DNA of 64,000 bases from Candidatus Limnocylindrales bacterium. Its GTDB lineage: Bacteria > Moduliflexota > Moduliflexia > Moduliflexales > JAUQPW01. Made by a program: the position numbers and the translations under genes. Positions 52,096 through 64,000 of the stretch are shown here, one piece after another. Every line of letters begins with the position of its first letter. Position 1 is the first letter of the stretch. The notes under the pieces are model-generated. The model saw nothing but the letters and a program-made list of their open reading frames with translations. It did not search any database and was not told the DNA's origin. The DNA lies in assembly GCA_035559535.1 (NCBI GenBank), contig DATMBG010000021.1, positions 1 to 64,000 of the forward strand. The letters are read 5' to 3'.

Positions 52096-54984
52096 ATGAG
52101 TCCTTCCATATTGGAAAAAGTAAAAGATCAGCTTGGGTTCAATTTTGTGGTAGTACTTCTGGCCGGATTATTAGGTTTTCTGTTAAATACCCTTCCCATA
52201 GAGTTATTCTATAAAGTATGGATCTTTTTCGGAAGTATCCCTGCTTTAATTGTTACCCTTACCCTGGGTCCCTTATGGGGATCTCTAACAGCCCTTCTTG
52301 CTTCGAGTTATACTGTTTATCTGTGGAATTCCTTTCACGGGGTTGTTCTTTACACCCTTGAAGCTCTCGTACTTGGTAGCCTGGTCAGCCAACAAAGGTC
52401 TCCCATTATCATGGACATGTTTTACTGGATTCTGATAGGGTCTCCACTGACCTATTGGTTTTATACTTCCTGGTTAGGTTATTCAAAGATTTACGTAAGC
52501 ATCCTGTGGGTTGGATTAATTCTAAATGGATTTATCAACATAACTTTGGCTAAATTGCTGCTGTTGCTGTTCCCCGGCATCAGTCTCGGTATTTCTAGAG
52601 GAAAGAAACCTTATCCAAGCGAAAGTCTTCAATCTTATCTTTTTGTGACCTTTATCATCGTAGCCATTACCCCGGTTGCCATAATGAGCCTCGTTAACAG
52701 TCGCTCCCTGATTAAAAGCAAACTGGAGGAGCGAAAAAATAATCTAAAAGAAATCTCCAACTCGGTAAGTATCAGCATTGATAAATACATAAAACTCCAT
52801 ATGGAAGGGCTCCAGACCCTGGTCAAGCAGCTTGAATCCAGAAAAAATCTGGCGCCTTCCCCAGAAATTGAAAACCTGATCGAAACGGCTTACAAGGAGT
52901 ATCAAGGATTTTCCGCTGTTTATCTGGCAGATGCCTCCGGCCAGGTCATGGTAATAAAACCGAGTTCCAGTGCTTCAGAGGTGATGAACTTTAGTAGCCG
53001 GGATTATTATAAGCAGCTTGTCCAAACGAAAAATACCACGATTTCAGAGGTATTTTTTGCCATAGAAGGAGGTTTTGAACCGACGGTTGTAATCGTTAGT
53101 CCGGTTCTAGACGAAAAAGGGCAAATGATGGCTTTTATCGGGGGAACACTGAACCTGAAGGTTATCAATCATTTCATCGACAAATTTAAAACCGATAAAG
53201 ACCGGGAAATTATCGTGGTAGATGAACGAAATCGGGTGATCAGTTCCAGTAATCCAAAACGTTATTGGGCCCTCAAGGATCTGGGAAACACAGAACTTAT
53301 AACCCAGGCTCTTAAAGAAGAATCTGAAGTTTTTCAGTATCAGCTCGATGAAGCGAAGGAGAGGGTCTCACCGGAGTCGGCCATCCGTCTGGTTGGGTTC
53401 CAGGTTCTTCGCCCTCTAGGATGGAAAGTTCTTATTGAGCAATCCTTACAAGAAATCTACTCGGAAATTCAAGTTATTTATCAACGACTGGCTTTCTGGA
53501 TCTTTGGAATCTGTGGATTTTCTATCTTTATCAGTATTTTACTTTCCAGAACGATCTCACAGCCTATTAAAGAATTAGAAGCAGAGGCTAAATCCTTCAT
53601 CAGCAACCTGGGACATAGAAAAGTCTCCTCCCGAAGCCTCATTGCTCCTACGGAGGTAACGACCCTGGCCAGGGCTTTTTCTGAAATGGCTCAAGAGATT
53701 GAAGGCTCTTACTCAAAGCTGGAGAGAATGGTTAAGGAAAGAACTGAGGAATTGGAGACTAAGAATTTTGAACTTCAGCAAATGAATAAAAAACTTGAAG
53801 AAATCAATCGACTCAAATCGGCTTTCCTGGCCAACATGTCCCATGAGTTGAGAACCCCCTTGAACTCCATCCTGTCCCTGTCAGAAGGTCTGATTCGCAA
53901 GATCCCCGGAGAACTCAACCAGGATCAGGAAAAATATTTAAAGATCATCTTCAAAAATGGCAAAGACTTGTTGGAGTTGATCAATGATCTCCTGGATCTG
54001 GCTAAAATAGAGGCTGGAAAGATGAAGTTAAATCACCGGGTTTTTGTAGTTAATCGCCTCATCGAGGAGGTTGTGGAGATCATTTATCCCATGACCCAAG
54101 AAAAGGGGTTACACTTCTTTGTTGAAGTGGATACATCTACACCCCCTGTGATTTACAGTGATGAAGAGCAAATCAAAAGGATTATTTTAAACCTGGCCAG
54201 CAATGCAGTTAAATTTACAGAGAAAGGACTGGTGGTTCTTGGGGTCAAAAGACGCCTCCAGCAAGATACCCAAAGACCATATATTCAATTTTCTGTATCG
54301 GATACCGGAATCGGAATTTCGAAAGAGCATCAAGAAGCCATATTTGGAGAGTTTATCCAGGTGGATATTTCCAGGGCCCGTCGCTATCAAGGAGCGGGGT
54401 TAGGCCTTGCCATATGTAAAAAACTGGTTCAAATCTTAGAAGGAGAGATCTGGCTTAACAGTGAGCCTGCAGAAGGCTCCACCTTTATGTTTACTATCCC
54501 TACCTGTGAAGATCAGATAAGTCCTGAAGCCCTGGCCTATATCCTAGAAGGGGAGAAAAATGTAGAAGCCAGATTTCGAAAATTTGAACTCAGACTTAAG
54601 AATGACCAGGGTCGCAAAGTTCTATTGATAGAAGATGTTATATCTACCCAGTATGCGATCAAGTTCCTCCTGGCAACCAGGAACATCCAGGTTATCATCC
54701 CAGACCACAGACCAGAAGAATGTTATAAGAATCTGGAGGTTCAACCTGATTTAATCCTGGTGGATGTGTCGATTCCAGATCGAGATGGACACACGATCCT
54801 TAAAGCTTTTAGAGAAATCCAAGCATTTAGGGAAATTCCTATCCTGGCGATTACCTCAGGTTCTAAAGAAGAACAGGGAAACAAATGGATAAAAATGGGG
54901 TATAATGATTATATTACAAAACCGATCCAGGACTCGGATTTGTTAGATAAAGTAACCTATTGGCTTAACCCAATCTGTTGTTAG
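52096..54984 (+). CDS. Hybrid sensor histidine kinase (TM sensor-Cache-HAMP-HisKA-HATPase-REC)
   Basis: FLANMSHELRTPLN, NLASNAVKFT, DTGIG, GAGLGL, C-terminal receiver PDLILVD. Confidence 0.93.
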   Translation: MSPSILEKVKDQLGFNFVVVLLAGLLGFLLNTLPIELFYKVWIFFGSIPALIVTLTLGPLWGSLTALLASSYTVYLWNSFHGVVLYTLEALVLGSLVSQQRSPIIMDMFYWILIGSPLTYWFYTSWLGYSKIYVSILWVGLILNGFINITLAKLLLLLFPGISLGISRGKKPYPSESLQSYLFVTFIIVAITPVAIMSLVNSRSLIKSKLEERKNNLKEISNSVSISIDKYIKLHMEGLQTLVKQLESRKNLAPSPEIENLIETAYKEYQGFSAVYLADASGQVMVIKPSSSASEVMNFSSRDYYKQLVQTKNTTISEVFFAIEGGFEPTVVIVSPVLDEKGQMMAFIGGTLNLKVINHFIDKFKTDKDREIIVVDERNRVISSSNPKRYWALKDLGNTELITQALKEESEVFQYQLDEAKERVSPESAIRLVGFQVLRPLGWKVLIEQSLQEIYSEIQVIYQRLAFWIFGICGFSIFISILLSRTISQPIKELEAEAKSFISNLGHRKVSSRSLIAPTEVTTLARAFSEMAQEIEGSYSKLERMVKERTEELETKNFELQQMNKKLEEINRLKSAFLANMSHELRTPLNSILSLSEGLIRKIPGELNQDQEKYLKIIFKNGKDLLELINDLLDLAKIEAGKMKLNHRVFVVNRLIEEVVEIIYPMTQEKGLHFFVEVDTSTPPVIYSDEEQIKRIILNLASNAVKFTEKGLVVLGVKRRLQQDTQRPYIQFSVSDTGIGISKEHQEAIFGEFIQVDISRARRYQGAGLGLAICKKLVQILEGEIWLNSEPAEGSTFMFTIPTCEDQISPEALAYILEGEKNVEARFRKFELRLKNDQGRKVLLIEDVISTQYAIKFLLATRNIQVIIPDHRPEECYKNLEVQPDLILVDVSIPDRDGHTILKAFREIQAFREIPILAITSGSKEEQGNKWIKMGYNDYITKPIQDSDLLDKVTYWLNPICC

Positions 54985-55224: not shown

Positions 55225-57174
55225 ATGGCAAAAATCTTAATCGTCGATGATAGAAGAGACAATATATTTTCTGCGACGGTCAAATTAAAAGAGGACAACT
55301 ATGAAATCCTCACGGAGACTCAGGCCGAAGAAGCTCTTAAGAAGGCTGAAGAGGAGTTACCGGATTGTATCCTGCTCGATGTAAACATGCCGGAAATGGA
55401 TGGATTTGAGATTTGCAGGAGACTTAAACAAAATCCCAAGACCCAGGATATTCCAGTTTTGTTTACAACTGCCATCTATCGAGATACAGAGAGTATTGTA
55501 AGGGGGTTGGAAGTTGGAGGAGATGATTATATTGTATCACCGTTTGAAGCTCAAGAACTCAGGGCTCGGGTCAAGGTTCTGGTTCGTCTCAAAAAGAGCC
55601 GGGATGAATTAAGAGAGAAGAATCTGGAGTTGGAACTGGCCAATGAGCAACTCAGAGAAAAGAATAACGATCTCATCCGGGCCAATAATTTTCTCAGCAG
55701 TATTATGGATTGGTCCGATTATTCTATTCTGACCGGCGATTTGCAAGGGACTATCTTGACTTTTAATGAAGGGGGGAAACGGACGTTTGCTTATGAAGCA
55801 GGGGAAGTTATCGGAAAACCCATAGGTATCTTATTTACGAAGGAGTTTAATGAGCCTGAGCAAATCCAGAACATGATCGAAGCCATTGTTACAACCGGAC
55901 GCTATGAAGGGGAAATGAAAGGAGTTCGAAAGAATCAGGAAATTTTCCCGGTGCATGCAGTATTTACCCTGAGAAAGGATGAAAACGGAAAACCTTTCGG
56001 ATTTGTCAATATCTCAAGAGATCTTTCTAAAGAGAAGAAACTGGAATTAACCGTTGAGCAGAAGGAGGAAGAACTCCAGAGAGCTACCCAAGAATTAGAA
56101 CGGAAAAATAAAGAACTGGAACTACGCTACAAATTCAAGAAGGATATCATTGGATATAGTCCCAAAATGCTGCAGGTATTTAAGATTATCGAACAGGTCT
56201 CCCAGATTGATTCTACGGTTTTAATTCAGGGAGAAAGCGGGACCGGAAAGGAATTAATCGCTAAAGCCATCCACTACAATAGCCCACGAGCCAAAGGCCC
56301 CCTAAGAACCGTTAATTGTGCTGCACTTCCAGAAACTCTGATCGAAAGTGAGCTATTCGGCCACGAAAAGGGAGCTTTTACCGGAGCAGACCGACAAAAG
56401 AAGGGACAGTTTGAGCTGGCCAATAAAGGAACGATCTTCCTGGATGAAATCGGAGAAGTCTCCCTGAGTACTCAGGTGAAACTGCTGCGGGTTCTTCAAG
56501 AAAAAGAGATCATCCGGGTCGGAGGGGATAATCCAATTAAAATAGATGTCCGAATTATTACCGCTACCAACAAAAATCTGGAAGAAGAAGTCAAAAAAGG
56601 AAATTTTAGACAGGATTTGTTATATCGACTCAATGTAATCCCTATCGTTTTACCTCCACTCAGAGAAAGACGGGATGATATCCAGTTGCTGGTCAATCAC
56701 TTTCTAAAGAAAACCTGTGAGCGCCTGGGAAAGAAAGTCAAAATCTCCCCAGAGGCCATGCAGGCCCTTACGAATTATCAATGGCCCGGTAACGTAAGAG
56801 AACTTGAAAATATCATCGAACGGGCCGTGGTTTTTGAAGAGACCGATACCATTACCTTAAGTTCCTTACCTCAGACCATAGCTGAAAATGCTATTCTCAA
56901 TCCATCCTGGGATAAAAAGGATCAAGGATTTCTAAAAAAGACCTATCAGGAGTTAAAAGAACAGGCCATTGAAAACTTCCATAGGGAACTCTTAGACTGG
57001 ATTCTGATCAAATACAAGGGCAATGTGGGAGCCGCAGCCAGAGAGCTTGGATTAGATAAAAGTAATTTCAGGAAAATCATTAAGAAATACCATATTAATG
57101 TACGGAATTACCGTCAAGGCCTGGCAAGTACCATGGGACGTACCCCAATCAAAAAGGAAGAGAATACCAGCTAA
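55225..57174 (+). CDS. Sigma54-dependent activator (REC-PAS-AAA+-HTH)
   Basis: ILLDVNMP receiver, [34 protein letters not shown], Fis-like HTH. Confidence 0.95.
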
Positions 57175-57841: not shown

Positions 57842-58525
57842 TTGAAAACGACAGCGAAAAGGCAAAAGGAGTTTTCTCGCCTTCCTCAACATGTAGGTAT
57901 TATTCCAGACGGAAACCGTCGTTGGGCAAAGAAGCGAGGTCTTGCGCAGCAGGAAGGTTATGAGGCTGGAATTGAGCCCGGACTTCGTCTCCTGAATCTT
58001 TGTCGGGAACTGGGAATTAAAGAAGCTTCGGTTTATGGTTTCACCAAGGAGAATGTACATCGACCGTCCGAACAAATCGAGAAGTTTCGAGAGGCCTGCG
58101 TAAAGTTTGTTTTCTCTGCCATTGAAGTGGGTGCGGCTTTGCTGGTCGTGGGTGATTCGGACTCTCCCGTTTTTCCAGATGCCCTTCGGCCTTTTACAAA
58201 ACAACGGACCCAGGGAGATATTCGGGTTAATTTGCTGGTAAACTATGGCTGGCAATGGGATCTCCTGTCAGCTCTGGAACATGCACGAACCAACAATACC
58301 CTTTCCTACTCTGGAATACCACGGGCTTTGGCTTCCGGGGATGTTTCACGCGTGGATCTTGTTGTACGTTGGGGTGGACGTCGTCGTCTTTCCGGCTTTC
58401 TGCCGATCCAATGTGCCTATGCAGATATGTATGTCATCGATACTCTTTGGCCGGACATGACTCTAGAGGAATTCTTAGATGCCCTTCGCTGGTATCAGGA
58501 ACAGGACATCACCCTGGGCGGATAA
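57842..58525 (+). CDS. cis-prenyltransferase (UppS family), divergent paralog
   Basis: PQHVGIIPDGNRRWA, YGFTKEN..R, NYGW, DLVVRWGGRRRLSGFLP. Confidence 0.88.
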   Translation: MKTTAKRQKEFSRLPQHVGIIPDGNRRWAKKRGLAQQEGYEAGIEPGLRLLNLCRELGIKEASVYGFTKENVHRPSEQIEKFREACVKFVFSAIEVGAALLVVGDSDSPVFPDALRPFTKQRTQGDIRVNLLVNYGWQWDLLSALEHARTNNTLSYSGIPRALASGDVSRVDLVVRWGGRRRLSGFLPIQCAYADMYVIDTLWPDMTLEEFLDALRWYQEQDITLGG

Positions 58526-58848
58526 TCCCCTTTGAGAACGACTGTAGAGGTGTTACAGATGCTCTACAGCCGTTCTTAACTCATCTAGAGTAGCCCGTCC
58601 TACCGGCTTGCAGATACCTCAAACCTGGAAGATGATACGCTTCCCCCCTATAGAACGCCCTTCTATCTGCGACTGGATTTCAATATCGAAGGGGTATAAA
58701 TCCATAGTTTATGGGAACAGATCGCCATGGATCCTTATCCAGGTCTTCCCCACCGAATACCTCTCCATATTTATTCTTAATGGGTGTAAATTTAAAGATC
58801 AATTGACCCAACCGGTTTTTCAGTACCCGGCCCTCAAATCGGATCCGA

Positions 58849-61800
58849 TTACTTTACCCTGATCTCAATACCCGGGATCGTCCCGACTTTTTCTGCATCA
58901 TACATGTCGTGAACGGATATATAAAGCCTGCCATACCCCGGACGGATAGCAACGGCATCGACCGTGAGTTCTTCTCGCTCGATAGGGAGGTAAGCGGTTT
59001 GTGCGTTGGCTCCTCCTTTGAGTAAGGCCAGGTTACCGGGCAAGAAAAGCCGTACCAGCGGAGCAAGAGCCTGCTCTCTGGGGGTAATGGTGATCTGGAC
59101 CCGTTCACCCACGCGAAGCCGGGCCTTGGTCAGTTTAACCGCAAACTGGAAATGAGCCCGTGGCTCCAGGTGATTGATCTCGATCTCTTCATCTATCCGC
59201 ACCATCAGGTTATCGTTGAGGGCTGTGACTTCCTGACCTATGGTAACATCCTTCAATATGACTTCCTTCCCGTCTATCACCGCCCGAGGGGATGGGTCAA
59301 ACCGAAGAAAGGCCAGCAATTCTACCAATGCTCGGGTATCGGCCGTGGAGTATAGCATGCCGTTGATTAGCCTGCTGGTAACAAAGGTAAACGCCGGACG
59401 AAATAATTCATCCCCGGCATGGTACATTACTCTGGCAACATCGGCAGTTACCTCTAGATTACCGCCCCAGGCCGACTTTGCTTTCCAGTAGGCCTTGTCC
59501 CCTTCTCGCTGAACGGTCCGGCGCAAAAATTGTAAAGATATATCGCGTTGGTTATTGCCGGCAAAGTAGTAGGCAACTGCGTCTTCCGGGCCAGACATCT
59601 CCCTACGGAAATGCATATCCAAAAGTAGAAGTGCATTATCCCGATACCCGGCTCTGAGCAAAGCACCTTTGGCTTTATTCAACATGGTCTCGGCCAGAGG
59701 AAATGGTAGATCTCGCAACCCCAGCAGACGGTGTACCACACGTGCTGTAATGTCTATTTCAGGCTGTCCCCCACACCAGAGGGAATATAAACCGTCGGGA
59801 TATTGGAATGTCGACAGGTGGTGTAGGCCTGCAAGTATACGGCCATGGGTAGCAGGCAAGTCCCCAGGTACCACCCCGCTAACAATGCCACAATAGGCTA
59901 CGGCCAGCCCATACAGGGCGCTTGCGGTCTGCTCTGCTCAGCCAAAGGGGTAGTGAATCAGGGCAGTAACAGTGTCCCTCAGTACCGGTCCCATGGAAGG
60001 GTAAACGACCACCCGCTCACCCTGGACGGTCTGACCCTGGTCCAGGATCATCAACCGGGAAGCCGTCACCTTCTGCACCCCGGGTCCATCTATGGCACGA
60101 ACACTCCAATCTGATCCGGTCTGATTTTCAATGCGAACCTCCACACGACCTGGGCCTTTGATCAAGATGCATTCCGTACCCTCACCCTGGACCCGAGTTT
60201 GGGTTCTATCAAAAGGCGTGGCAATAATCAGATCAGCAGGCTCGCGGGTATGATAATGAACCGCGGCGGTAATAGCATCTCCGACACTGGCAATGGTGGG
60301 TAGATCCAACTCAGCATATAGTGGTTTATCCACTTGAATATCCGAAGTGAGTTCGCGGTAGTCTACCTCCTGGAATAAGTAAGCCCGCACACGCCAGGTA
60401 CCAATCTGATCCCCCAATTTGACCTTGCGTGAAACCTGACCATTCAGGCAAAGTAGCTCCAGGTGGACCATCTCAGGGAACTCCATGCGGATAGGAGCTA
60501 CCATTACCTCCGGTAGCTTGTCTGTAGTCATGAGGAAGTCTAACTCACGCGCAGCCCCCGCCGGGCTGATGTCGGACTGCAGAGAGAAATCTTTTTGAAA
60601 GCTCATAATGATGTCGGGCTCCATAATAAGGAAATCAAGGTCACCAGGTAGAACTAAGTCCTCGTCTTGTAGGTTAGATACCGACCCGGCAGCCAAACTA
60701 TGGGTCGCCTCTCGGATGCTTTCGTAAATCCTTTTGGCGAGTTTGGGGAGGAGGCTCTCGTGTTCCAGTCGGGCGTCGTAGACCAGAAGCAGACAAAAAA
60801 GTGGATGGATGGAAGACCCAACAGGGGAGATAGAGGAAGGAAGATCACCATTTTCAGTCCCCGATTTTGGATCCTGAACCTCTCCACCATTCTCCCATGT
60901 TGTTTTAAGGTGGATTGTAACTTCTTCACCGGGCTGTGCAGTGGCCGGCACGGTTAGCATGGCTTCAAACGCCAGTGGCTTGATCACAACGCCCCAACCC
61001 TCAAAGGGTTTTTCTCGGGTAAATGCCCCAACCGTGAACAGGGTATAGGGTGCTTCGGCGTCAAACTCGAGGGTTTCACCCTGTTTGAGGTCGGCCCGGT
61101 CGATTACCTGGCTGATTCCGGTACGTGGGTTGAAGACGATGAGCTGGGTCGTTAACAGGTCTGTAACCACCTGCAGTCTGCCTCTGACTGCCTGGATACT
61201 TTCCAGGACCAGGGGAGTCCTGTTAACTTCACCCAAACCGACATAAAAGCCCCGCAAAGGCTGAGCGTTCTCCCAGGGTATCAACCCCATCCTGGCCGTC
61301 TGACCCAGCAGGTTGATCGGGATAGGTTTTCGTTCTTTGACACCGGTTCCCGGAAACGAAACAAGCGCTGTATGACCTTCTGGCGTGATGACTTGTACAT
61401 GGAACGGACCACTATGATTTGAAAGATTAAATTGACCCCGAACGATACCCTTTTTGGCCTTTACCTTTTGCACGGCTACTACGCATTCACTACAAACCTG
61501 GCATTGCAATCCAAGCTCCACCGGACCCGAATAGGGTGTGGAAAGCAAAAATAGCTTGAGGGTGAAGGTAAGATATTGTCCTGTATACTGATATGTTTCC
61601 AGGATAGCCAGAAGGGGGGAAAGGGTAAACTCGGCTACACTGAAGGTACATTCAGCCTGGGTATTATCGGATAAGGTAACGATGGCCTTATACTCCCCTT
61701 CTTTTAGATCTGGGTAACGATGCAAAGCCAGACCTCCTGGATTGAGAGTTACCTTTGCCTCATACACCTTTTGTCCGGCCAGTTGGATCTCAACAGCGGC

Positions 61801-62196
61801 TTCATCCTCCGCCATATCCGGTGCAACAATGAACAGAGCTGCCTCGCTACCGGTTCGGTAAATCTTACGGTCGGTCACCACGGTCAGTAATTTAAGCGAA
61901 GGCCAGGGAAGTCGAGGCCGATCAGGTAATGATCCCTCTTGTCCCCTTGTTTTACCGCCGCCCGAGTTATCCCCGAAACTCACCCCGTGCCGGTGGAGCG
62001 AAAGGATCGTAGTCGCACAGTAGGTTTGAAGGGTTCCATCTACCTCTAACGTCACGGGGTGTTCGTTATCGGCCTGGACAAAGATAAACTGCTGGCCGAC
62101 AAATACCCGGTCGTATAAGTAACCTATATTCTGTTTACAATGGATACATACTTCAGCGTCAGCCGGATTAGGACGGAAACAGGTGGAACAATACAT
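58849..62196 (-). CDS. Alpha-2-macroglobulin family protein, 1115 aa, with in-frame UGA (putative Sec753) at the thioester cysteine
   Basis: The two track ORFs are in frame and joined by 21 sense codons after TGA (59938-59940). A2M motifs TDRKIYRTG, IRMEFPE, LGDQIGTWRV, KPLYAELDLP, YPFG-U-AEQT, FQYPDGLYSLW, DMYDAE. Confidence 0.82.
59903..59925 (-). promoter_or_regulatory. Bacterial SECIS-like stem-loop downstream of the in-frame UGA
   Basis: UGA-GCAGAGCAGACC-GCAAGC-GCCC-UGUAU-GGGC-UGGC; apical loop has GU at +24/+25. Confidence 0.65.
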
Positions 62197-62325
62197 AGAA
62201 ATCTCCTTTTTAATAACACTGATTTAAGAGTACTGGGTATCGAGTACTAGTAAATCAGTCCAGAGGGCCTGGTAGAGTGTCTAGGCAGATCTGGTAGACG
62301 TAGAAATTCTCTTTCCTTTCAGGGA

Positions 62326-64000
62326 TTACGGCCTGGGGAAAGCGGGAGGCATTGGCTCGATACAACCACTTCGACCCGCGTTCCGACAACGATCGTACTC
62401 ATCTTTTCTGCTATCGTAGTCGAGCCAGGCGTCTGCAGCGTCATTGGCCTGCCGCTCACCCATCAAATAGCTAAAGCGCTCAGCTTCGTTTCGGAATACC
62501 CTGCCTCTGGGATCTCGATAAGTACGAAACCCGATGAGTTGCCGTTCCTCCTCTGTACGGAAGGTAACGCTCAGGATTTGTCGCAGGTGCCGGGCCATAT
62601 AGGCTGCCTGGGCGTGGCCGTGTGCTGCGGCTTTATCGTACCAGAAGATGGCGGTGTTACGATCCTGGGGAACCCCCATACCATACTCGTAAGCGCGTCC
62701 TAAGCGGAACTCGCCCAGGTCATGGCCTTGCCTGGCACTCAAGGCATACCAATAGGCAGCGGTCATCCAATCCTCGGGTACCCCCTTGCCATCTTCGTAA
62801 AGGGCACCCAGGTTGCTCTGCGCCGTAGCGTTACCCTGCCGGGCCGAGAGCTGATACCACCGAGCTGCTTCGGTGTAATTCTGGAGGACTCCTTCCCCGT
62901 ACTCATATTGATACCCTATCTGTAATTGAGCCTGATCATAACCCAGTTTTGCCGCCTCCAGAAACCGTTGTGCGGCCGCTGCATAGTCCCCGGCGAGATA
63001 AAGTTCTTTGCCCTGCTCAAAGAGCGTGCGGGCATGGGTGGTTGCCTCGGTACTGGGGGTCGAGGGCTGACTTTGAATCGCATCGGAAGTAGATCCCCTT
63101 TCAGGTAGGGTCGACTGCGCCATCCCTGGTTTCGGTGGGGACGGAAAAGACCTGTCGTCTCTATCTGGTTCCTTGAGGTTCGTCTGTATCTCACTACTTC
63201 GTCGCCACACACCTGTGCCGAGATTACCTGTGGCTATCAGCGTGTCTGTATCCGGCAATTGATAAGTGCCCTCATCTGTATAACCGTGGGTTGACTTTAA
63301 ACTCCAATGTCCGTCCTTGATCGTAACACTTCCGCTATGGGGGGCCGGAGAGCCGGGCCCTTCACTTCGGAAGTTGTAAGTACCATCAGATTGGATCTCC
63401 CATATCCAGCGTGCCACACCCCTTGCATTGGGTACCTTGAGTTCCCAGATACCCACCACTGACGGCTCAACCGGACCGACAATGGCCGAAGTAGTTTCCG
63501 AAGGTTGTAACTTTGAGGAATCTTTCTTACCCACACGGACCCATAGTATAGTACCTTCCTTATCGGTCATCTCCAACCTATCGGCCTGAAGAATTTCATA
63601 GGTAGCTTCTGTGATCGGTCCATCAACCGGTATCATCTTCAACTGCCCATTGTCGGCTTCCACATGCATCTTAACTTCTGCACTCGAAATGACACGAATC
63701 GAATGGCCATTTGGACTGATCCGCCAAACCAGGGTCAACGGAATACCGTCCTTTACTACACTTGCCTGCCAGAGACCCACCAGGGCCGAATTTAATGGAT
63801 TTTGCGGAGACCCTCCTTGAGGAGCAGCCAAAACCTTATCTAAAAAAATAGGATCTATACCCGACGGTCGTGTTCCGGACGGAATCCGGGTCCATTGAAT
63901 TTCATCATAAGGGGATCCGGCTTCCTGGGTCGAAAAGGCATTGGTACTCTTCACAGCATATTTGCCATGGGCAAGATCCCCAGGCTTATTGGGAACCCTT
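62326..64000 (-). CDS. Sel1-repeat protein with repeated beta-rich domains (5' end outside window)
   Basis: Sel1 repeats (AQLQIG..YEYGEGV..NY.EAA.WY..SA.QG); two similar VGxW...WxIxxxG domains; frame stays open to the window end. Confidence 0.85.
   Translation of the reverse strand, partial: RVPNKPGDLAHGKYAVKSTNAFSTQEAGSPYDEIQWTRIPSGTRPSGIDPIFLDKVLAAPQGGSPQNPLNSALVGLWQASVVKDGIPLTLVWRISPNGHSIRVISSAEVKMHVEADNGQLKMIPVDGPITEATYEILQADRLEMTDKEGTILWVRVGKKDSSKLQPSETTSAIVGPVEPSVVGIWELKVPNARGVARWIWEIQSDGTYNFRSEGPGSPAPHSGSVTIKDGHWSLKSTHGYTDEGTYQLPDTDTLIATGNLGTGVWRRSSEIQTNLKEPDRDDRSFPSPPKPGMAQSTLPERGSTSDAIQSQPSTPSTEATTHARTLFEQGKELYLAGDYAAAAQRFLEAAKLGYDQAQLQIGYQYEYGEGVLQNYTEAARWYQLSARQGNATAQSNLGALYEDGKGVPEDWMTAAYWYALSARQGHDLGEFRLGRAYEYGMGVPQDRNTAIFWYDKAAAHGHAQAAYMARHLRQILSVTFRTEEERQLIGFRTYRDPRGRVFRNEAERFSYLMGERQANDAADAWLDYDSRKDEYDRCRNAGRSGCIEPMPPAFPRP

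What the first reader, a model, noticed from the sequence alone, without database searches (positions are those of the whole stretch)
58849..62196. Putative selenocysteine alpha-2-macroglobulin: a selenoester instead of the thioester
Seen: the minus strand reads ATT CAC TAC CCC TTT GGC TGA GCA GAG CAG ACC (IHYPFG-UGA-AEQT). It is the only stop in a 1115-codon frame, with intact A2M motifs on both sides and a SECIS-like hairpin downstream. Established: A2M/complement thioester proteins use CxEQ, where Cys and Gln form an internal thioester that traps attacking proteases; bacterial Sec is encoded by UGA plus an adjacent 3' hairpin and replaces catalytic Cys. Inference: Sec753 would form an intramolecular selenoester with Gln756, a more reactive acyl donor and a non-redox role for Sec. 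I am not aware of a described selenoprotein A2M, but could not search. A single TGY>TGA nonsense change or a sequencing error remains possible.
Basis: partly seen in the sequence, partly recalled or inferred. Interest (0 to 1): 0.95.

Follow-up and report, generated by a model that had tools for sequence, protein, structure and literature searches.

The report
Selenocysteine at a macroglobulin's thioester site
A bacterial relative of the protease-trapping alpha-2-macroglobulins carries a conserved UGA (selenocysteine) codon exactly where these proteins normally have the cysteine of their reactive thioester, so its warhead is probably a selenium ester, a use of selenium not found in the literature searched.

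Summary
Window 58849-62196 (-) is one 1115-codon frame with a single TGA at codon 753, in IHYPFG-U-AEQT.

It is neither an error nor a nonsense mutation.
- Of 74 database homologues, 71 predicted proteins end exactly at ...YPFG and 2 read through with Cys.
- Of 44 related loci, 41 can be read at the site: 39 have TGA, 2 have TGC, none has TAA or TAG. All continue in frame with AEQT.
- The part after TGA is under stronger purifying selection than the part before it.
- Synonymous sites are most constrained, gene-wide, just after TGA, over a conserved CCC-UGUAU-GGG hairpin.
- The genome has SelA, SelB, a Sec-containing SelD and tRNA-Sec.
- An independent run also shows the TGA.

The fold is a native-state A2M/TEP, and U753 aligns with the thioester Cys of E. 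coli YfhM. Unlike known bacterial A2Ms, it has an N-terminal zinc ribbon and no signal peptide.

Selenoester formation is inferred, not shown. Seven literature searches found no description of such a protein. This scan noted the same idea before on two other genomes.

The parts
58849..62196 (-). Whole gene: 1115 codons plus a TAA stop, with one in-frame TGA. It encodes an A2M/TEP-like protein.
   Evidence: The full-length AlphaFold model (pLDDT 85.5) matches native A2M-superfamily structures.
62203..62208 (-). AAGGAG, a Shine-Dalgarno-like motif 6 nt upstream of the ATG.
   Evidence: Sequence printed. The motif name is recalled, not tested.
62122..62196 (-). N-terminal Cys4 zinc-ribbon-like motif (C3, C6, C17, C20). 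There is no signal peptide.
   Evidence: C3, C6, C17 and C20 are nearly invariant in A1. No hydrophobic N-terminus or TM segment was found. The name 'zinc ribbon' comes from the CxxC...CxxC pattern; Pfam gave no hit.
60772..61899 (-). Run of beta-sandwich (MG-like) domains, residues ~100-475.
   Evidence: DSSP of the model. MG2 hits in homologues are weak. Distant relatives match only this part.
60484..60699 (-). Hypervariable, disordered segment (residues 500-571). Candidate bait region.
   Evidence: pLDDT is below 50 over residues 513-571. Length varies from 70 to 95 aa, and column identity is the lowest of the protein (0.32) across 22 full-length sequences. The bait function is inferred.
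60253..60444 (-). A2M domain (Pfam PF00207), residues 585-648.
   Evidence: 25.4 bits, above the cut-off of 21.
59308..59994 (-). Helical thioester-type domain (TED), residues 735-963.
   Evidence: Helices 735-963 in the model. Pfam TED_complement scores 19.6 bits, below its cut-off. Alignment to the YfhM TED.
59938..59940 (-). TGA, codon 753: the proposed selenocysteine codon.
   Evidence: 39 TGA and 2 TGC of 41 readable loci; present in two runs.
59929..59940 (-). U-A-E-Q, the counterpart of the CxEQ thioester motif (U753, E755, Q756).
   Evidence: C/U753, E755, Q756 and T757 are invariant in 34 full-length rows. The motif aligns with YPYG-C-LEQTAS of YfhM.
59902..59922 (-). Candidate SECIS hairpin: an invariant CCC / UGUAU loop / GGG core (59908-59918), with a lower stem that forms in varying registers. 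22 nt separate the UGA from the loop.
   Evidence: 32 of 36 MFE folds show it. The lowest synonymous entropy of the whole gene falls here. Covariation is not significant.
59893..59912 (-). It cannot form at the same time as the proximal one.
   Evidence: MFE of the window sequence; 70.8% of cells paired across 36 rows, no better than shuffles.
58852..59286 (-). C-terminal beta-sandwich domain (residues 971-1115), in the position of MG8/RBD. It is the best conserved part of the protein.
   Evidence: column identity 0.72-0.84.

Best explanation
The gene encodes one 1115-residue protein of the alpha-2-macroglobulin/thioester-protein superfamily. The reactive cysteine of its CxEQ motif is replaced by selenocysteine. 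That selenocysteine is inserted at UGA-753 by the genome's SelA/SelB/SelD/tRNA-Sec system, guided by a small hairpin that begins about 15 nt after the UGA (CCC-UGUAU-GGG core).

Shown here: the UGA is conserved, read through in frame, and interchanges with Cys. The RNA just downstream is under synonymous constraint. The Sec machinery is present. The fold is a native-state A2M.

Inferred: Sec753 and Gln756 form an internal selenoester, buried in the native state. Cleavage of the disordered bait-like segment (residues ~500-571) exposes it, and it then acylates a nucleophile of the attacking protein faster than a thioester would.

The protein has a zinc ribbon and no signal peptide or membrane segment, so it probably acts in the cytoplasm. 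Known bacterial A2Ms are periplasmic lipoproteins. The gene is rare, lies mostly in Chloroflexota MAGs, and was probably acquired by this genome by horizontal transfer.
For: (1) Conserved stop at one codon. Of the 74 homologues (38-61% identity; leaving out the window's own N-part, P0002, and a distant canonical A2M, P0077), 71 predicted proteins end exactly in ...YPFG, 2 are full length with Cys (YPFG-C-AEQT, SSFG-C-AEQT), and 1 is a fragment that ends earlier.
(2) DNA. 44 related loci were found with N-terminal peptide patterns, so the search did not select on this codon. 41 are readable at the site: 39 TGA, 2 TGC, no TAA or TAG. All continue in frame with AEQT. 36 distinct TGA-bearing 60-nt rows remain after removing 3 duplicates and 1 short row.
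(3) The downstream part is translated. Amino-acid identity is higher downstream than upstream in 231 of 231 pairs (0.641 against 0.495). In the 14 closest pairs dN/dS is 0.065-0.147 downstream and 0.127-0.222 upstream. The invariant residues E755, Q756, T757, G763 and L764 lie before the first possible downstream start codon.
(4) RNA element. The lowest synonymous-entropy windows of the whole gene are codons 753-761 (0.38) and 755-763 (0.41), against a gene mean of 0.689. L761 is CTG in 21 of 21, G763 is GGG in 21 of 21, and E755 is GAG in 21 of 21. 32 of 36 MFE folds give the CCC/UGUAU/GGG hairpin. The one Cys-form DNA (L040) reads CTC TAC GGT there, which breaks the hairpin. The SelD gene of this same genome has TGA followed by a hairpin whose loop starts 20 nt after it.
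(5) Machinery. G000 has SelA at 540 bits, SelB at 409 bits, SelD at 389 bits with one in-frame TGA, and a tRNA-SeC with anticodon tca. SelA was found in 9 of 10 other genomes that hold the gene. The tenth, G048, has SelB at 326 bits.
(6) Reads. A 241-nt contig from a run of a different study covers 59817-60057 with no differences.
(7) Family. The Foldseek top hits are native CD109, Salmonella A2M, ECAM, C5, TEP1r and A2ML1 (E 7e-38 to 1e-35). TMq is about 0.43-0.56 for native forms and about 0.31-0.33 for activated forms. phmmer aligns U753 with the Cys of YPYG-C-LEQTAS in YfhM.
Against: - No protein-level data exist. No RNA run was listed.
- Covariation in the proposed hairpin is not above the shuffles. 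Its 3-bp core never varies, so it cannot be tested that way. A competing distal hairpin exists.
- The window's own 76-nt stretch folds no better than shuffled sequence.
- Pfam TED_complement is below its cut-off.
- In one genome that holds the gene (G041), SelB was found only as a 42-residue N-terminal fragment. It runs into 200 N in the assembly, so this is most simply an assembly gap.
- In G048, SelA was not found.
- A selenoester is a higher-energy bond than a thioester (recalled chemistry). Whether it can form from a Gln amide and survive in a thiol-rich cytoplasm is unknown.
- The release of synonymous constraint in Cys forms rests on a single DNA sequence.
Confidence: 0.85

Rival explanations
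1. Sec is inserted, but no selenoester forms. Sec753 would work as a free selenol, for example as a redox or metal-binding residue or as a nucleophile that attacks a target directly. The conserved E and Q would then serve structure.
For: Most known selenoproteins are redox enzymes (PMC1794560, passages read). No tool here can show the bond. The predicted cytoplasmic location is an unusual setting for a labile acyl-selenide.
Against: C/U753, E755 and Q756 are invariant in 34 full-length rows, and Cys and Sec forms interchange without any change to the motif. The Cys forms carry the exact CxEQ of proven thioester proteins. No second Cys is conserved next to the site to act as a resolving partner: the motif is G-U-A-E-Q-T.
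Confidence: 0.1
2. The UGA is read through by something other than the Sec system: near-cognate Trp, Cys or Arg insertion, or leaky termination. This would give a minority full-length product and a majority 752-residue product.
For: No protein data exist. SECIS covariation is not significant.
Against: The stop is always TGA, never TAA or TAG, in 39 of 39 loci that have a stop there. It sits on a residue that is Cys in homologues. At least one Sec-specific gene was found in all 10 other genomes tested that hold the gene, and the full set is present in G000. Synonymous constraint is concentrated just 3' of the codon. TGA is an ordinary stop elsewhere in the window, ending 7 of 22 long ORFs, a count that includes this gene's own 752-aa part.
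Confidence: 0.03
3. The TGA is a real stop. The gene would then be a pseudogene, an assembly error, or two separate genes.
For: Gene callers split it. All 71 truncated database entries are annotated that way.
Against: The same codon recurs in 39 loci from many assemblies and in two runs. The downstream part is more conserved than the upstream part. Invariant residues lie between the TGA and any possible start codon. The model folds as one A2M with a TED that spans the TGA.
Confidence: 0.02

Closest known systems
Type I bacterial alpha-2-macroglobulins (E. coli YfhM/ECAM, PDB 5a42, 4ziq, 4rtd; Salmonella A2M, 4u48)
   Same: The overall MG-domain, TED and C-terminal-domain fold is shared (Foldseek E 2.3e-36). 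The YP[FY]G-C/U-xEQT motif aligns residue for residue. A disordered variable segment precedes the A2M domain, where a bait region would lie.
   Different: It has Sec instead of Cys. It is about 1115 residues against about 1650. Sequence similarity is very low (phmmer E 3.7e-4, about 13-14% identity in the structural alignment). It has an N-terminal zinc ribbon and no signal peptide or lipobox. No penicillin-binding-protein gene lies beside it; that this association is typical of type I A2Ms is recalled.
Eukaryotic thioester proteins (CD109 8s3o, TEP1r 4d94/2pn5, A2ML1 7q1y, A2M 7von, complement C3/C4/C5)
   Same: These are the best structural matches, and in the native conformation (TMq 0.53-0.56, E down to 7e-38). 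The CxEQ chemistry is the model for the proposed mechanism.
   Different: They are secreted or GPI-anchored, larger, and use Cys. Sequence identity is 11-14%.
Cys-containing sister family of short A2M-like proteins (e.g. P0079, P0080, P0082, P0089; ~1030-1130 aa, unnamed)
   Same: They are 27-35% identical over the full length, have the same domain order, carry YP[FYH]G-C-[AG]EQTS[AS]K, and have no obvious signal peptide.
   Different: They use Cys at the site and lack the zinc ribbon. NCBIfam and PADLOC have no model for either group. Four rows in that group also end at YPFG. No DNA was seen for them, so their stop codon is unknown.
Established bacterial selenoproteins (SelD, FdhA and the thiol-oxidoreductase-like families)
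   Same: An in-frame UGA replaces a reactive Cys. A hairpin lies directly downstream. Sec/Cys homologue pairs exist, and Sec-to-Cys reversions occur within Sec-decoding organisms (PMC1794560, passages read).
   Different: Those families are almost all redox enzymes. Here the Cys being replaced is an acyl carrier in an intramolecular ester, not a redox residue.

Membership tests
Alpha-2-macroglobulin / thioester-containing protein superfamily | Chain of MG beta-sandwich domains with an A2M domain, and the overall A2M fold | tested here: met
   Pfam A2M scores 25.4 bits, above the cut-off of 21. The model has pLDDT 85.5. Foldseek gives E 7e-38 to 1e-35 to CD109, bacterial A2Ms, TEP1 and C5.
Alpha-2-macroglobulin / thioester-containing protein superfamily | Helical thioester domain carrying the CxEQ motif | tested here: inconclusive
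   The helical domain spans residues 735-963. The motif G-U-A-E-Q aligns with G-C-L-E-Q of YfhM. E and Q are invariant. However, the Cys is replaced by a TGA codon, and Pfam TED_complement is below its cut-off (19.6 against 22).
Alpha-2-macroglobulin / thioester-containing protein superfamily | Protease-sensitive bait region | tested here: inconclusive
   A disordered (pLDDT below 50), hypervariable segment of 70-95 residues lies before the A2M domain. Cleavage was not tested.
Alpha-2-macroglobulin / thioester-containing protein superfamily | Intramolecular Cys-Gln (here Sec-Gln) ester bond | not testable with these tools
   This needs mass spectrometry, amine reactivity or a solved structure.
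Type I bacterial A2M (periplasmic lipoprotein, YfhM-like) | Signal peptide or lipobox, and periplasmic location | tested here: not met
   The N-terminus is MYCSTCFRPNPADAEVCIHC. The highest 19-residue hydropathy window (1.75) is a TED helix at residue 758. No dedicated signal-peptide predictor was available.
Type I bacterial A2M (periplasmic lipoprotein, YfhM-like) | Adjacent pbpC-type penicillin-binding protein gene (feature recalled) | tested here: not met
   The neighbours are a Sel1-repeat protein and an undecaprenyl-diphosphate synthase. No neighbour is conserved across 18 loci.
Bacterial selenoproteins | In-frame UGA at a position that is Cys in homologues, with a conserved coding sequence on both sides | tested here: met
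Bacterial selenoproteins | [quoted passage not shown] | tested here: inconclusive
   The hairpin has a UGUAU loop, with 22 nt between the UGA and the loop. 32 of 36 folds show it, and the strongest synonymous constraint of the gene lies there. No significant covariation was found. Rfam gave no hit.
Bacterial selenoproteins | selA, selB, selD and tRNA-Sec in the same genome | tested here: met
Bacterial selenoproteins | Selenium in the polypeptide | not testable with these tools
   This needs 75Se labelling or mass spectrometry.

The most novel reading that the evidence does not exclude
This would be the first natural protein with an intramolecular selenoester (Sec753-Gln756). That would put selenocysteine in a non-redox, acyl-transfer role. 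The bond would serve as a faster-firing warhead in a cytoplasmic, zinc-ribbon-bearing A2M-like covalent trap that tags or cages intracellular proteases, perhaps those of phages or toxins. The family has kept Sec across most of a deep clade and has reverted to Cys at least twice.
Probability: 0.45. Interest if true: 0.95.

Novelty: new variant of a known kind. Interest (0 to 1): 0.86.

Why it matters
Selenocysteine is known almost only as a redox catalyst. Here it replaces a cysteine whose job is to hold an acyl group.

If the ester forms, it is a natural counterpart of the selenoesters that peptide chemists use because they acylate much faster than thioesters (listings and abstracts seen). It would also add a new kind of post-translational bond.

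The result points to a rare, unannotated clade of probably cytoplasmic A2M-like proteins whose targets are unknown.

There is a practical consequence too. All 71 truncated database entries of this family are miscalled as about 750-residue proteins, so selenoprotein catalogues and A2M surveys built on predicted proteins would miss them.

The family offers natural Sec/Cys pairs (P0003, P0004/L040) for a direct comparison of selenoester and thioester reactivity.

Tried and rejected
- Rfam with lax thresholds over 58500-62500 gave only a chance lncRNA hit.
- Folding the window's 76 nt alone gave z +0.86, so it is not informative.
- RNAalifold kept only the invariant 3-bp stem. My first structure string for the count of structure pairs was off by one column and is void. 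The corrected proximal hairpin and the distal hairpin both fail to beat the shuffles. I therefore rest the RNA claim on synonymous constraint, not on covariation.
- Relatives of the window's genome: none of 40 other genomes holds the gene, including the same-genus G001. None of the other 8 genomes of its phylum holds it either.
- An even sample of 401 genomes from the phylum of G041 gave only G041 itself. Eight other genomes matched only residues ~84-433.
- Conserved neighbours: none across 18 loci. Clusters c1-c3 are shadow ORFs on the gene itself.
- NCBIfam and PADLOC gave no family.
- Sequencing runs: no RNA holder was listed. X2 covers only 16 of 30 bins.
- Seven literature searches found no selenoprotein A2M and no natural protein selenoester. 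PMC1794560 has 0 occurrences of 'macroglobulin' or 'thioester'. Supplementary tables of selenoproteome surveys could not be opened and might list the family.
- SelB in G041: the two best hits are IF-2 and LepA. The true SelB is a 42-residue fragment cut off by 200 N.
- No coordinates of the model were available, so the U753-Q756 distance and burial could not be measured.
Full report
OBSERVATION

Translating window 58849-62196 on the minus strand gives 1115 codons and a TAA stop. The single internal stop is TGA at codon 753 (window 59938-59940), in the context ...TALIHYPFG-TGA-AEQTASALYGL. Under the standard bacterial code the frame falls into a 752-aa ORF and a 341-aa ORF whose first possible start is a GTG 22 codons after the TGA.

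Pfam finds the A2M domain before the TGA (residues 585-648, 25.4 bits, cut-off 21). It finds the A-macroglobulin TED domain across the TGA (residues 735-825, 19.6 bits, just under the cut-off of 22).

The hairpin in this one sequence is not evidence by itself. The 76 nt after the TGA fold no better than shuffled versions (z +0.86), and Rfam has no match.

THE UGA IS CONSERVED, NOT AN ACCIDENT

A search of 5.8 billion predicted proteins returned 76 hits. One is the window's own N-part and one is a distant canonical A2M.
- Of the other 74 (38-61% identical), 71 are about 720-800 residues long and end exactly in ...YPFG.
- Two are full length and read YPFG-C-AEQT (P0003) and SSFG-C-AEQT (P0004).
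- One is a fragment that stops earlier.

I then fetched DNA. The peptide patterns used for the scans lie in the N-terminal half (CLLLVYDAR, FPEL...), so they do not select on the codon in question. This gave 16 loci from species-representative genomes and 28 from metagenomes.
- Two of these loci end before the site, and one has masked letters there.
- Of the 41 readable loci, 39 have TGA and 2 have TGC. None has TAA or TAG.
- Every one continues in the same frame with AEQT[SA]S[AT]LYGL.
- The two TGC loci are L040, a Cys member of the family, and L068, a distant canonical A2M.
- Three loci duplicate others over the site. 36 distinct TGA-bearing rows remain, including the window.

Contigs of the likely source run carry the TGA. 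So does a 241-nt contig from a run of a different study, with no differences over 59817-60057.

THE PART AFTER THE UGA IS TRANSLATED

Across 22 full-length coding sequences, amino-acid identity is higher downstream of the TGA than upstream in 231 of 231 pairs (means 0.641 and 0.495). In the 14 closest pairs dN/dS is 0.065-0.147 downstream against 0.127-0.222 upstream.

In an alignment of 34 full-length rows (Sec forms read through, plus Cys forms), G752, C/U753, E755, Q756, T757, G763 and L764 are invariant. All of them lie before any in-frame start codon of a putative second gene. Two separate genes, a pseudogene and a sequencing error are thereby excluded.

AN RNA ELEMENT SITS JUST 3' OF THE UGA

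I measured the entropy of synonymous codon choice at 430 columns where the amino acid is conserved, in 21 Sec-form genes.
- The gene mean is 0.689 (sd 0.20).
- The lowest 8-codon windows of the whole gene are codons 753-761 (0.38) and 755-763 (0.41).
- Leu761 is CTG in 21 of 21, Gly763 is GGG in 21 of 21, and Glu755 is GAG in 21 of 21.

The invariant letters form CCC-UGUAU-GGG: a 3-bp stem with a 5-nt loop, with 22 nt between the UGA and the loop. The loop is UGUAC in 3 of 36 rows.
- A lower stem forms in different registers in different lineages.
- 32 of 36 minimum-energy folds of the 33-nt stretch show this hairpin, and 2 more show a version shifted by one base.
- The only Cys-form DNA available (L040) reads CTC TAC GGT at these codons, which destroys the stem.
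- The SelD gene of the same genome has an in-frame TGA followed by a hairpin whose loop begins 20 nt after it.

Against this, formal covariation is absent. The position and the G in the loop fit what I recall of the bacterial SECIS rule. [quoted passage not shown] I rate the SECIS as probable, not proven.

THE DECODING MACHINERY IS PRESENT

The genome holds the following:
- SelA at 540 bits.
- SelB at 409 bits.
- SelD at 389 bits, itself with one in-frame TGA.
- A tRNA-SeC with anticodon tca.

TGA is otherwise an ordinary stop here. It ends 7 of 22 long ORFs in the window, counting this gene's own first part.

Among 10 other genomes that hold the gene, SelA was found in 9. The tenth, G048, has SelB at 326 bits.

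One result looked contrary. In G041 the SelB model's best hits are IF-2 and LepA. The true SelB appears only as a 42-residue N-terminal fragment, but that fragment runs straight into 200 N in the assembly. G041 also has SelA and a tRNA-Sec at 67.5 bits. I read this as an assembly gap.

WHAT THE PROTEIN IS

AlphaFold with the 34-row alignment gives a confident model (mean pLDDT 85.5, pTM 0.71).
- It has a small N-terminal module, a run of beta-sandwich domains, and a long disordered segment (residues 513-571).
- More beta-sandwiches follow, then a helical domain (735-963) that begins just before the UGA, and a C-terminal beta-sandwich.

Foldseek against the PDB returns only A2M-superfamily proteins at the top: native CD109 (E 7e-38), Salmonella A2M, E. 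coli ECAM, C5, TEP1r, A2ML1 and A2M. TM-scores are about 0.43-0.56 for native states and about 0.31-0.33 for protease- or methylamine-activated states.

By sequence, the nearest solved protein is E. coli YfhM (E 3.7e-4). The alignment puts U753 on the Cys of YPYG-C-LEQTAS. That this Cys is the thioester cysteine is recalled knowledge of ECAM.

The segment 500-571 is the least conserved of the protein (column identity 0.32) and varies from 70 to 95 residues. It lies where a bait region would be.

Three features set the protein apart from known bacterial A2Ms:
- It is short, at 1115 residues.
- It begins with a nearly invariant CxxC-x10-CxxC zinc-ribbon-like motif.
- It has no hydrophobic N-terminus or membrane segment.

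It is therefore probably cytoplasmic. No neighbouring gene is conserved across 18 loci. In the window the neighbours are a Sel1-repeat protein and an undecaprenyl-diphosphate synthase. NCBIfam and PADLOC have no model for it.

FAMILY HISTORY

An exhaustive profile-free search found 661 relatives at E <= 1e-3. They include a sister group of about 1030-1130-residue proteins, 27-35% identical, with YP[FYH]G-C-[AG]EQTS[AS]K and no zinc ribbon.

I built a FastTree of 105 N-terminal parts, with the site itself excluded.
- The zinc-ribbon clade has 81 rows (support 99). 79 of them end at YPFG.
- The two Cys forms are nested inside a 52-row subclade (support 100). This implies at least two Sec-to-Cys reversions.
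- The sister group has 18 Cys rows and 4 rows that end at YPFG.
- At least 5-6 state changes are needed in all.

Three caveats apply. This is FastTree only. The sister group has long branches. And 'Sec' for protein-only rows is inferred from truncation at YPFG, not from DNA.

The gene is rare.
- It was not found in the same-genus genome G001, nor in the 8 other genomes of the window's small phylum.
- In an even sample of 401 genomes of the phylum of G041, only G041 has it.
- All named holders are Chloroflexota MAGs, except one bin labelled Planctomycetia.
- The gene's G+C content is 52.1%, against 45.7% for the genome.

Together these suggest horizontal acquisition.

MECHANISM

Shown: there is one reading frame. 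The UGA is conserved and interchanges with Cys. The RNA 3' of it is constrained. The Sec machinery is present. The fold is a native-like A2M, with U753 at the thioester position and E/Q invariant.

Inferred: Sec753 attacks the Gln756 carboxamide during folding, releases ammonia, and forms a buried selenoester. Cleavage of the bait-like segment triggers rearrangement. The exposed selenoester then acylates a Lys or hydroxyl of the attacking protein. The higher acyl-transfer reactivity of selenoesters is known to me from ligation chemistry (listings and abstracts agree), and it would make capture faster.

My odds are about 0.9 that Sec is inserted, and about 0.5 that a selenoester is the functional form. 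The target and the reason for a cytoplasmic location are unknown.

NOVELTY

Seven full-text searches found no selenoprotein A2M and no natural protein selenoester. The 2006 catalogue of 25 bacterial selenoprotein families, of which I read passages, has no occurrence of 'macroglobulin' or 'thioester'. It states that most selenoproteins are redox proteins. Supplementary tables of later surveys could not be opened.

This scan has noted the same idea twice before, on other genomes (e1-1166815 and e1-1168202; the latter shares sequence words with this gene). My tests here were run independently of those notes and agree with them.

I class this as a new variant of a known kind: a known superfamily and a known recoding system, combined to give a chemistry that has not been described.

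Noticed in passing
G000 contig C29:76668-77594 (locus L010): The genome's selenophosphate synthetase SelD is itself a selenoprotein (VECGG-U-AAKL). Its TGA is followed by the hairpin GCCCAAC-GGU-GUUGGGC.
   Followed up: partly
window 58849-62196 against the whole genome: The gene has 52.1% G+C against 45.7% for contig and genome. It is missing from the same-genus genome and the rest of the small phylum, while all other holders are Chloroflexota MAGs. This suggests horizontal transfer.
   Followed up: partly
L040:1020-7603: The Cys-form gene (1361 aa) has TPR repeats at the N-terminus instead of the zinc ribbon. It is followed directly by a 749-aa truncated paralogue that breaks off before the A2M domain.
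   Followed up: partly
L037 (downstream of its TGA): This locus has one extra stop within 300 codons after the Sec codon, although tblastn matches on to residue 1114. It may be a frameshift or a decaying copy.
   Followed up: no
L032, L033, L036, L047: One subclade shares neighbours: a beta-eliminating lyase (PF01212) upstream and a metallo-beta-lactamase-fold protein downstream. The other loci do not have this arrangement.
   Followed up: partly
window 62326-63999 (-), 55225-57174 (+), 52096-54984 (+): A Sel1-repeat protein lies directly upstream and runs off the window end. A sigma-54 activator response regulator and a hybrid Cache/histidine kinase lie nearby. No link to the A2M-like gene was seen.
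   Followed up: no
proteins P0151-P0224; G395, G339 and others: A large, distant group of 1100-1400-residue proteins matches only the MG-domain part (residues ~90-433) and shows no CxEQ motif. These are apparently thioester-less relatives, also without an obvious signal peptide.
   Followed up: no
L072 (G041:C1:132500-137000): The SelB gene of this 'chromosome'-level MAG is cut after 42 residues by a run of 200 N, about 14 kb from its tRNA-Sec.
   Followed up: yes
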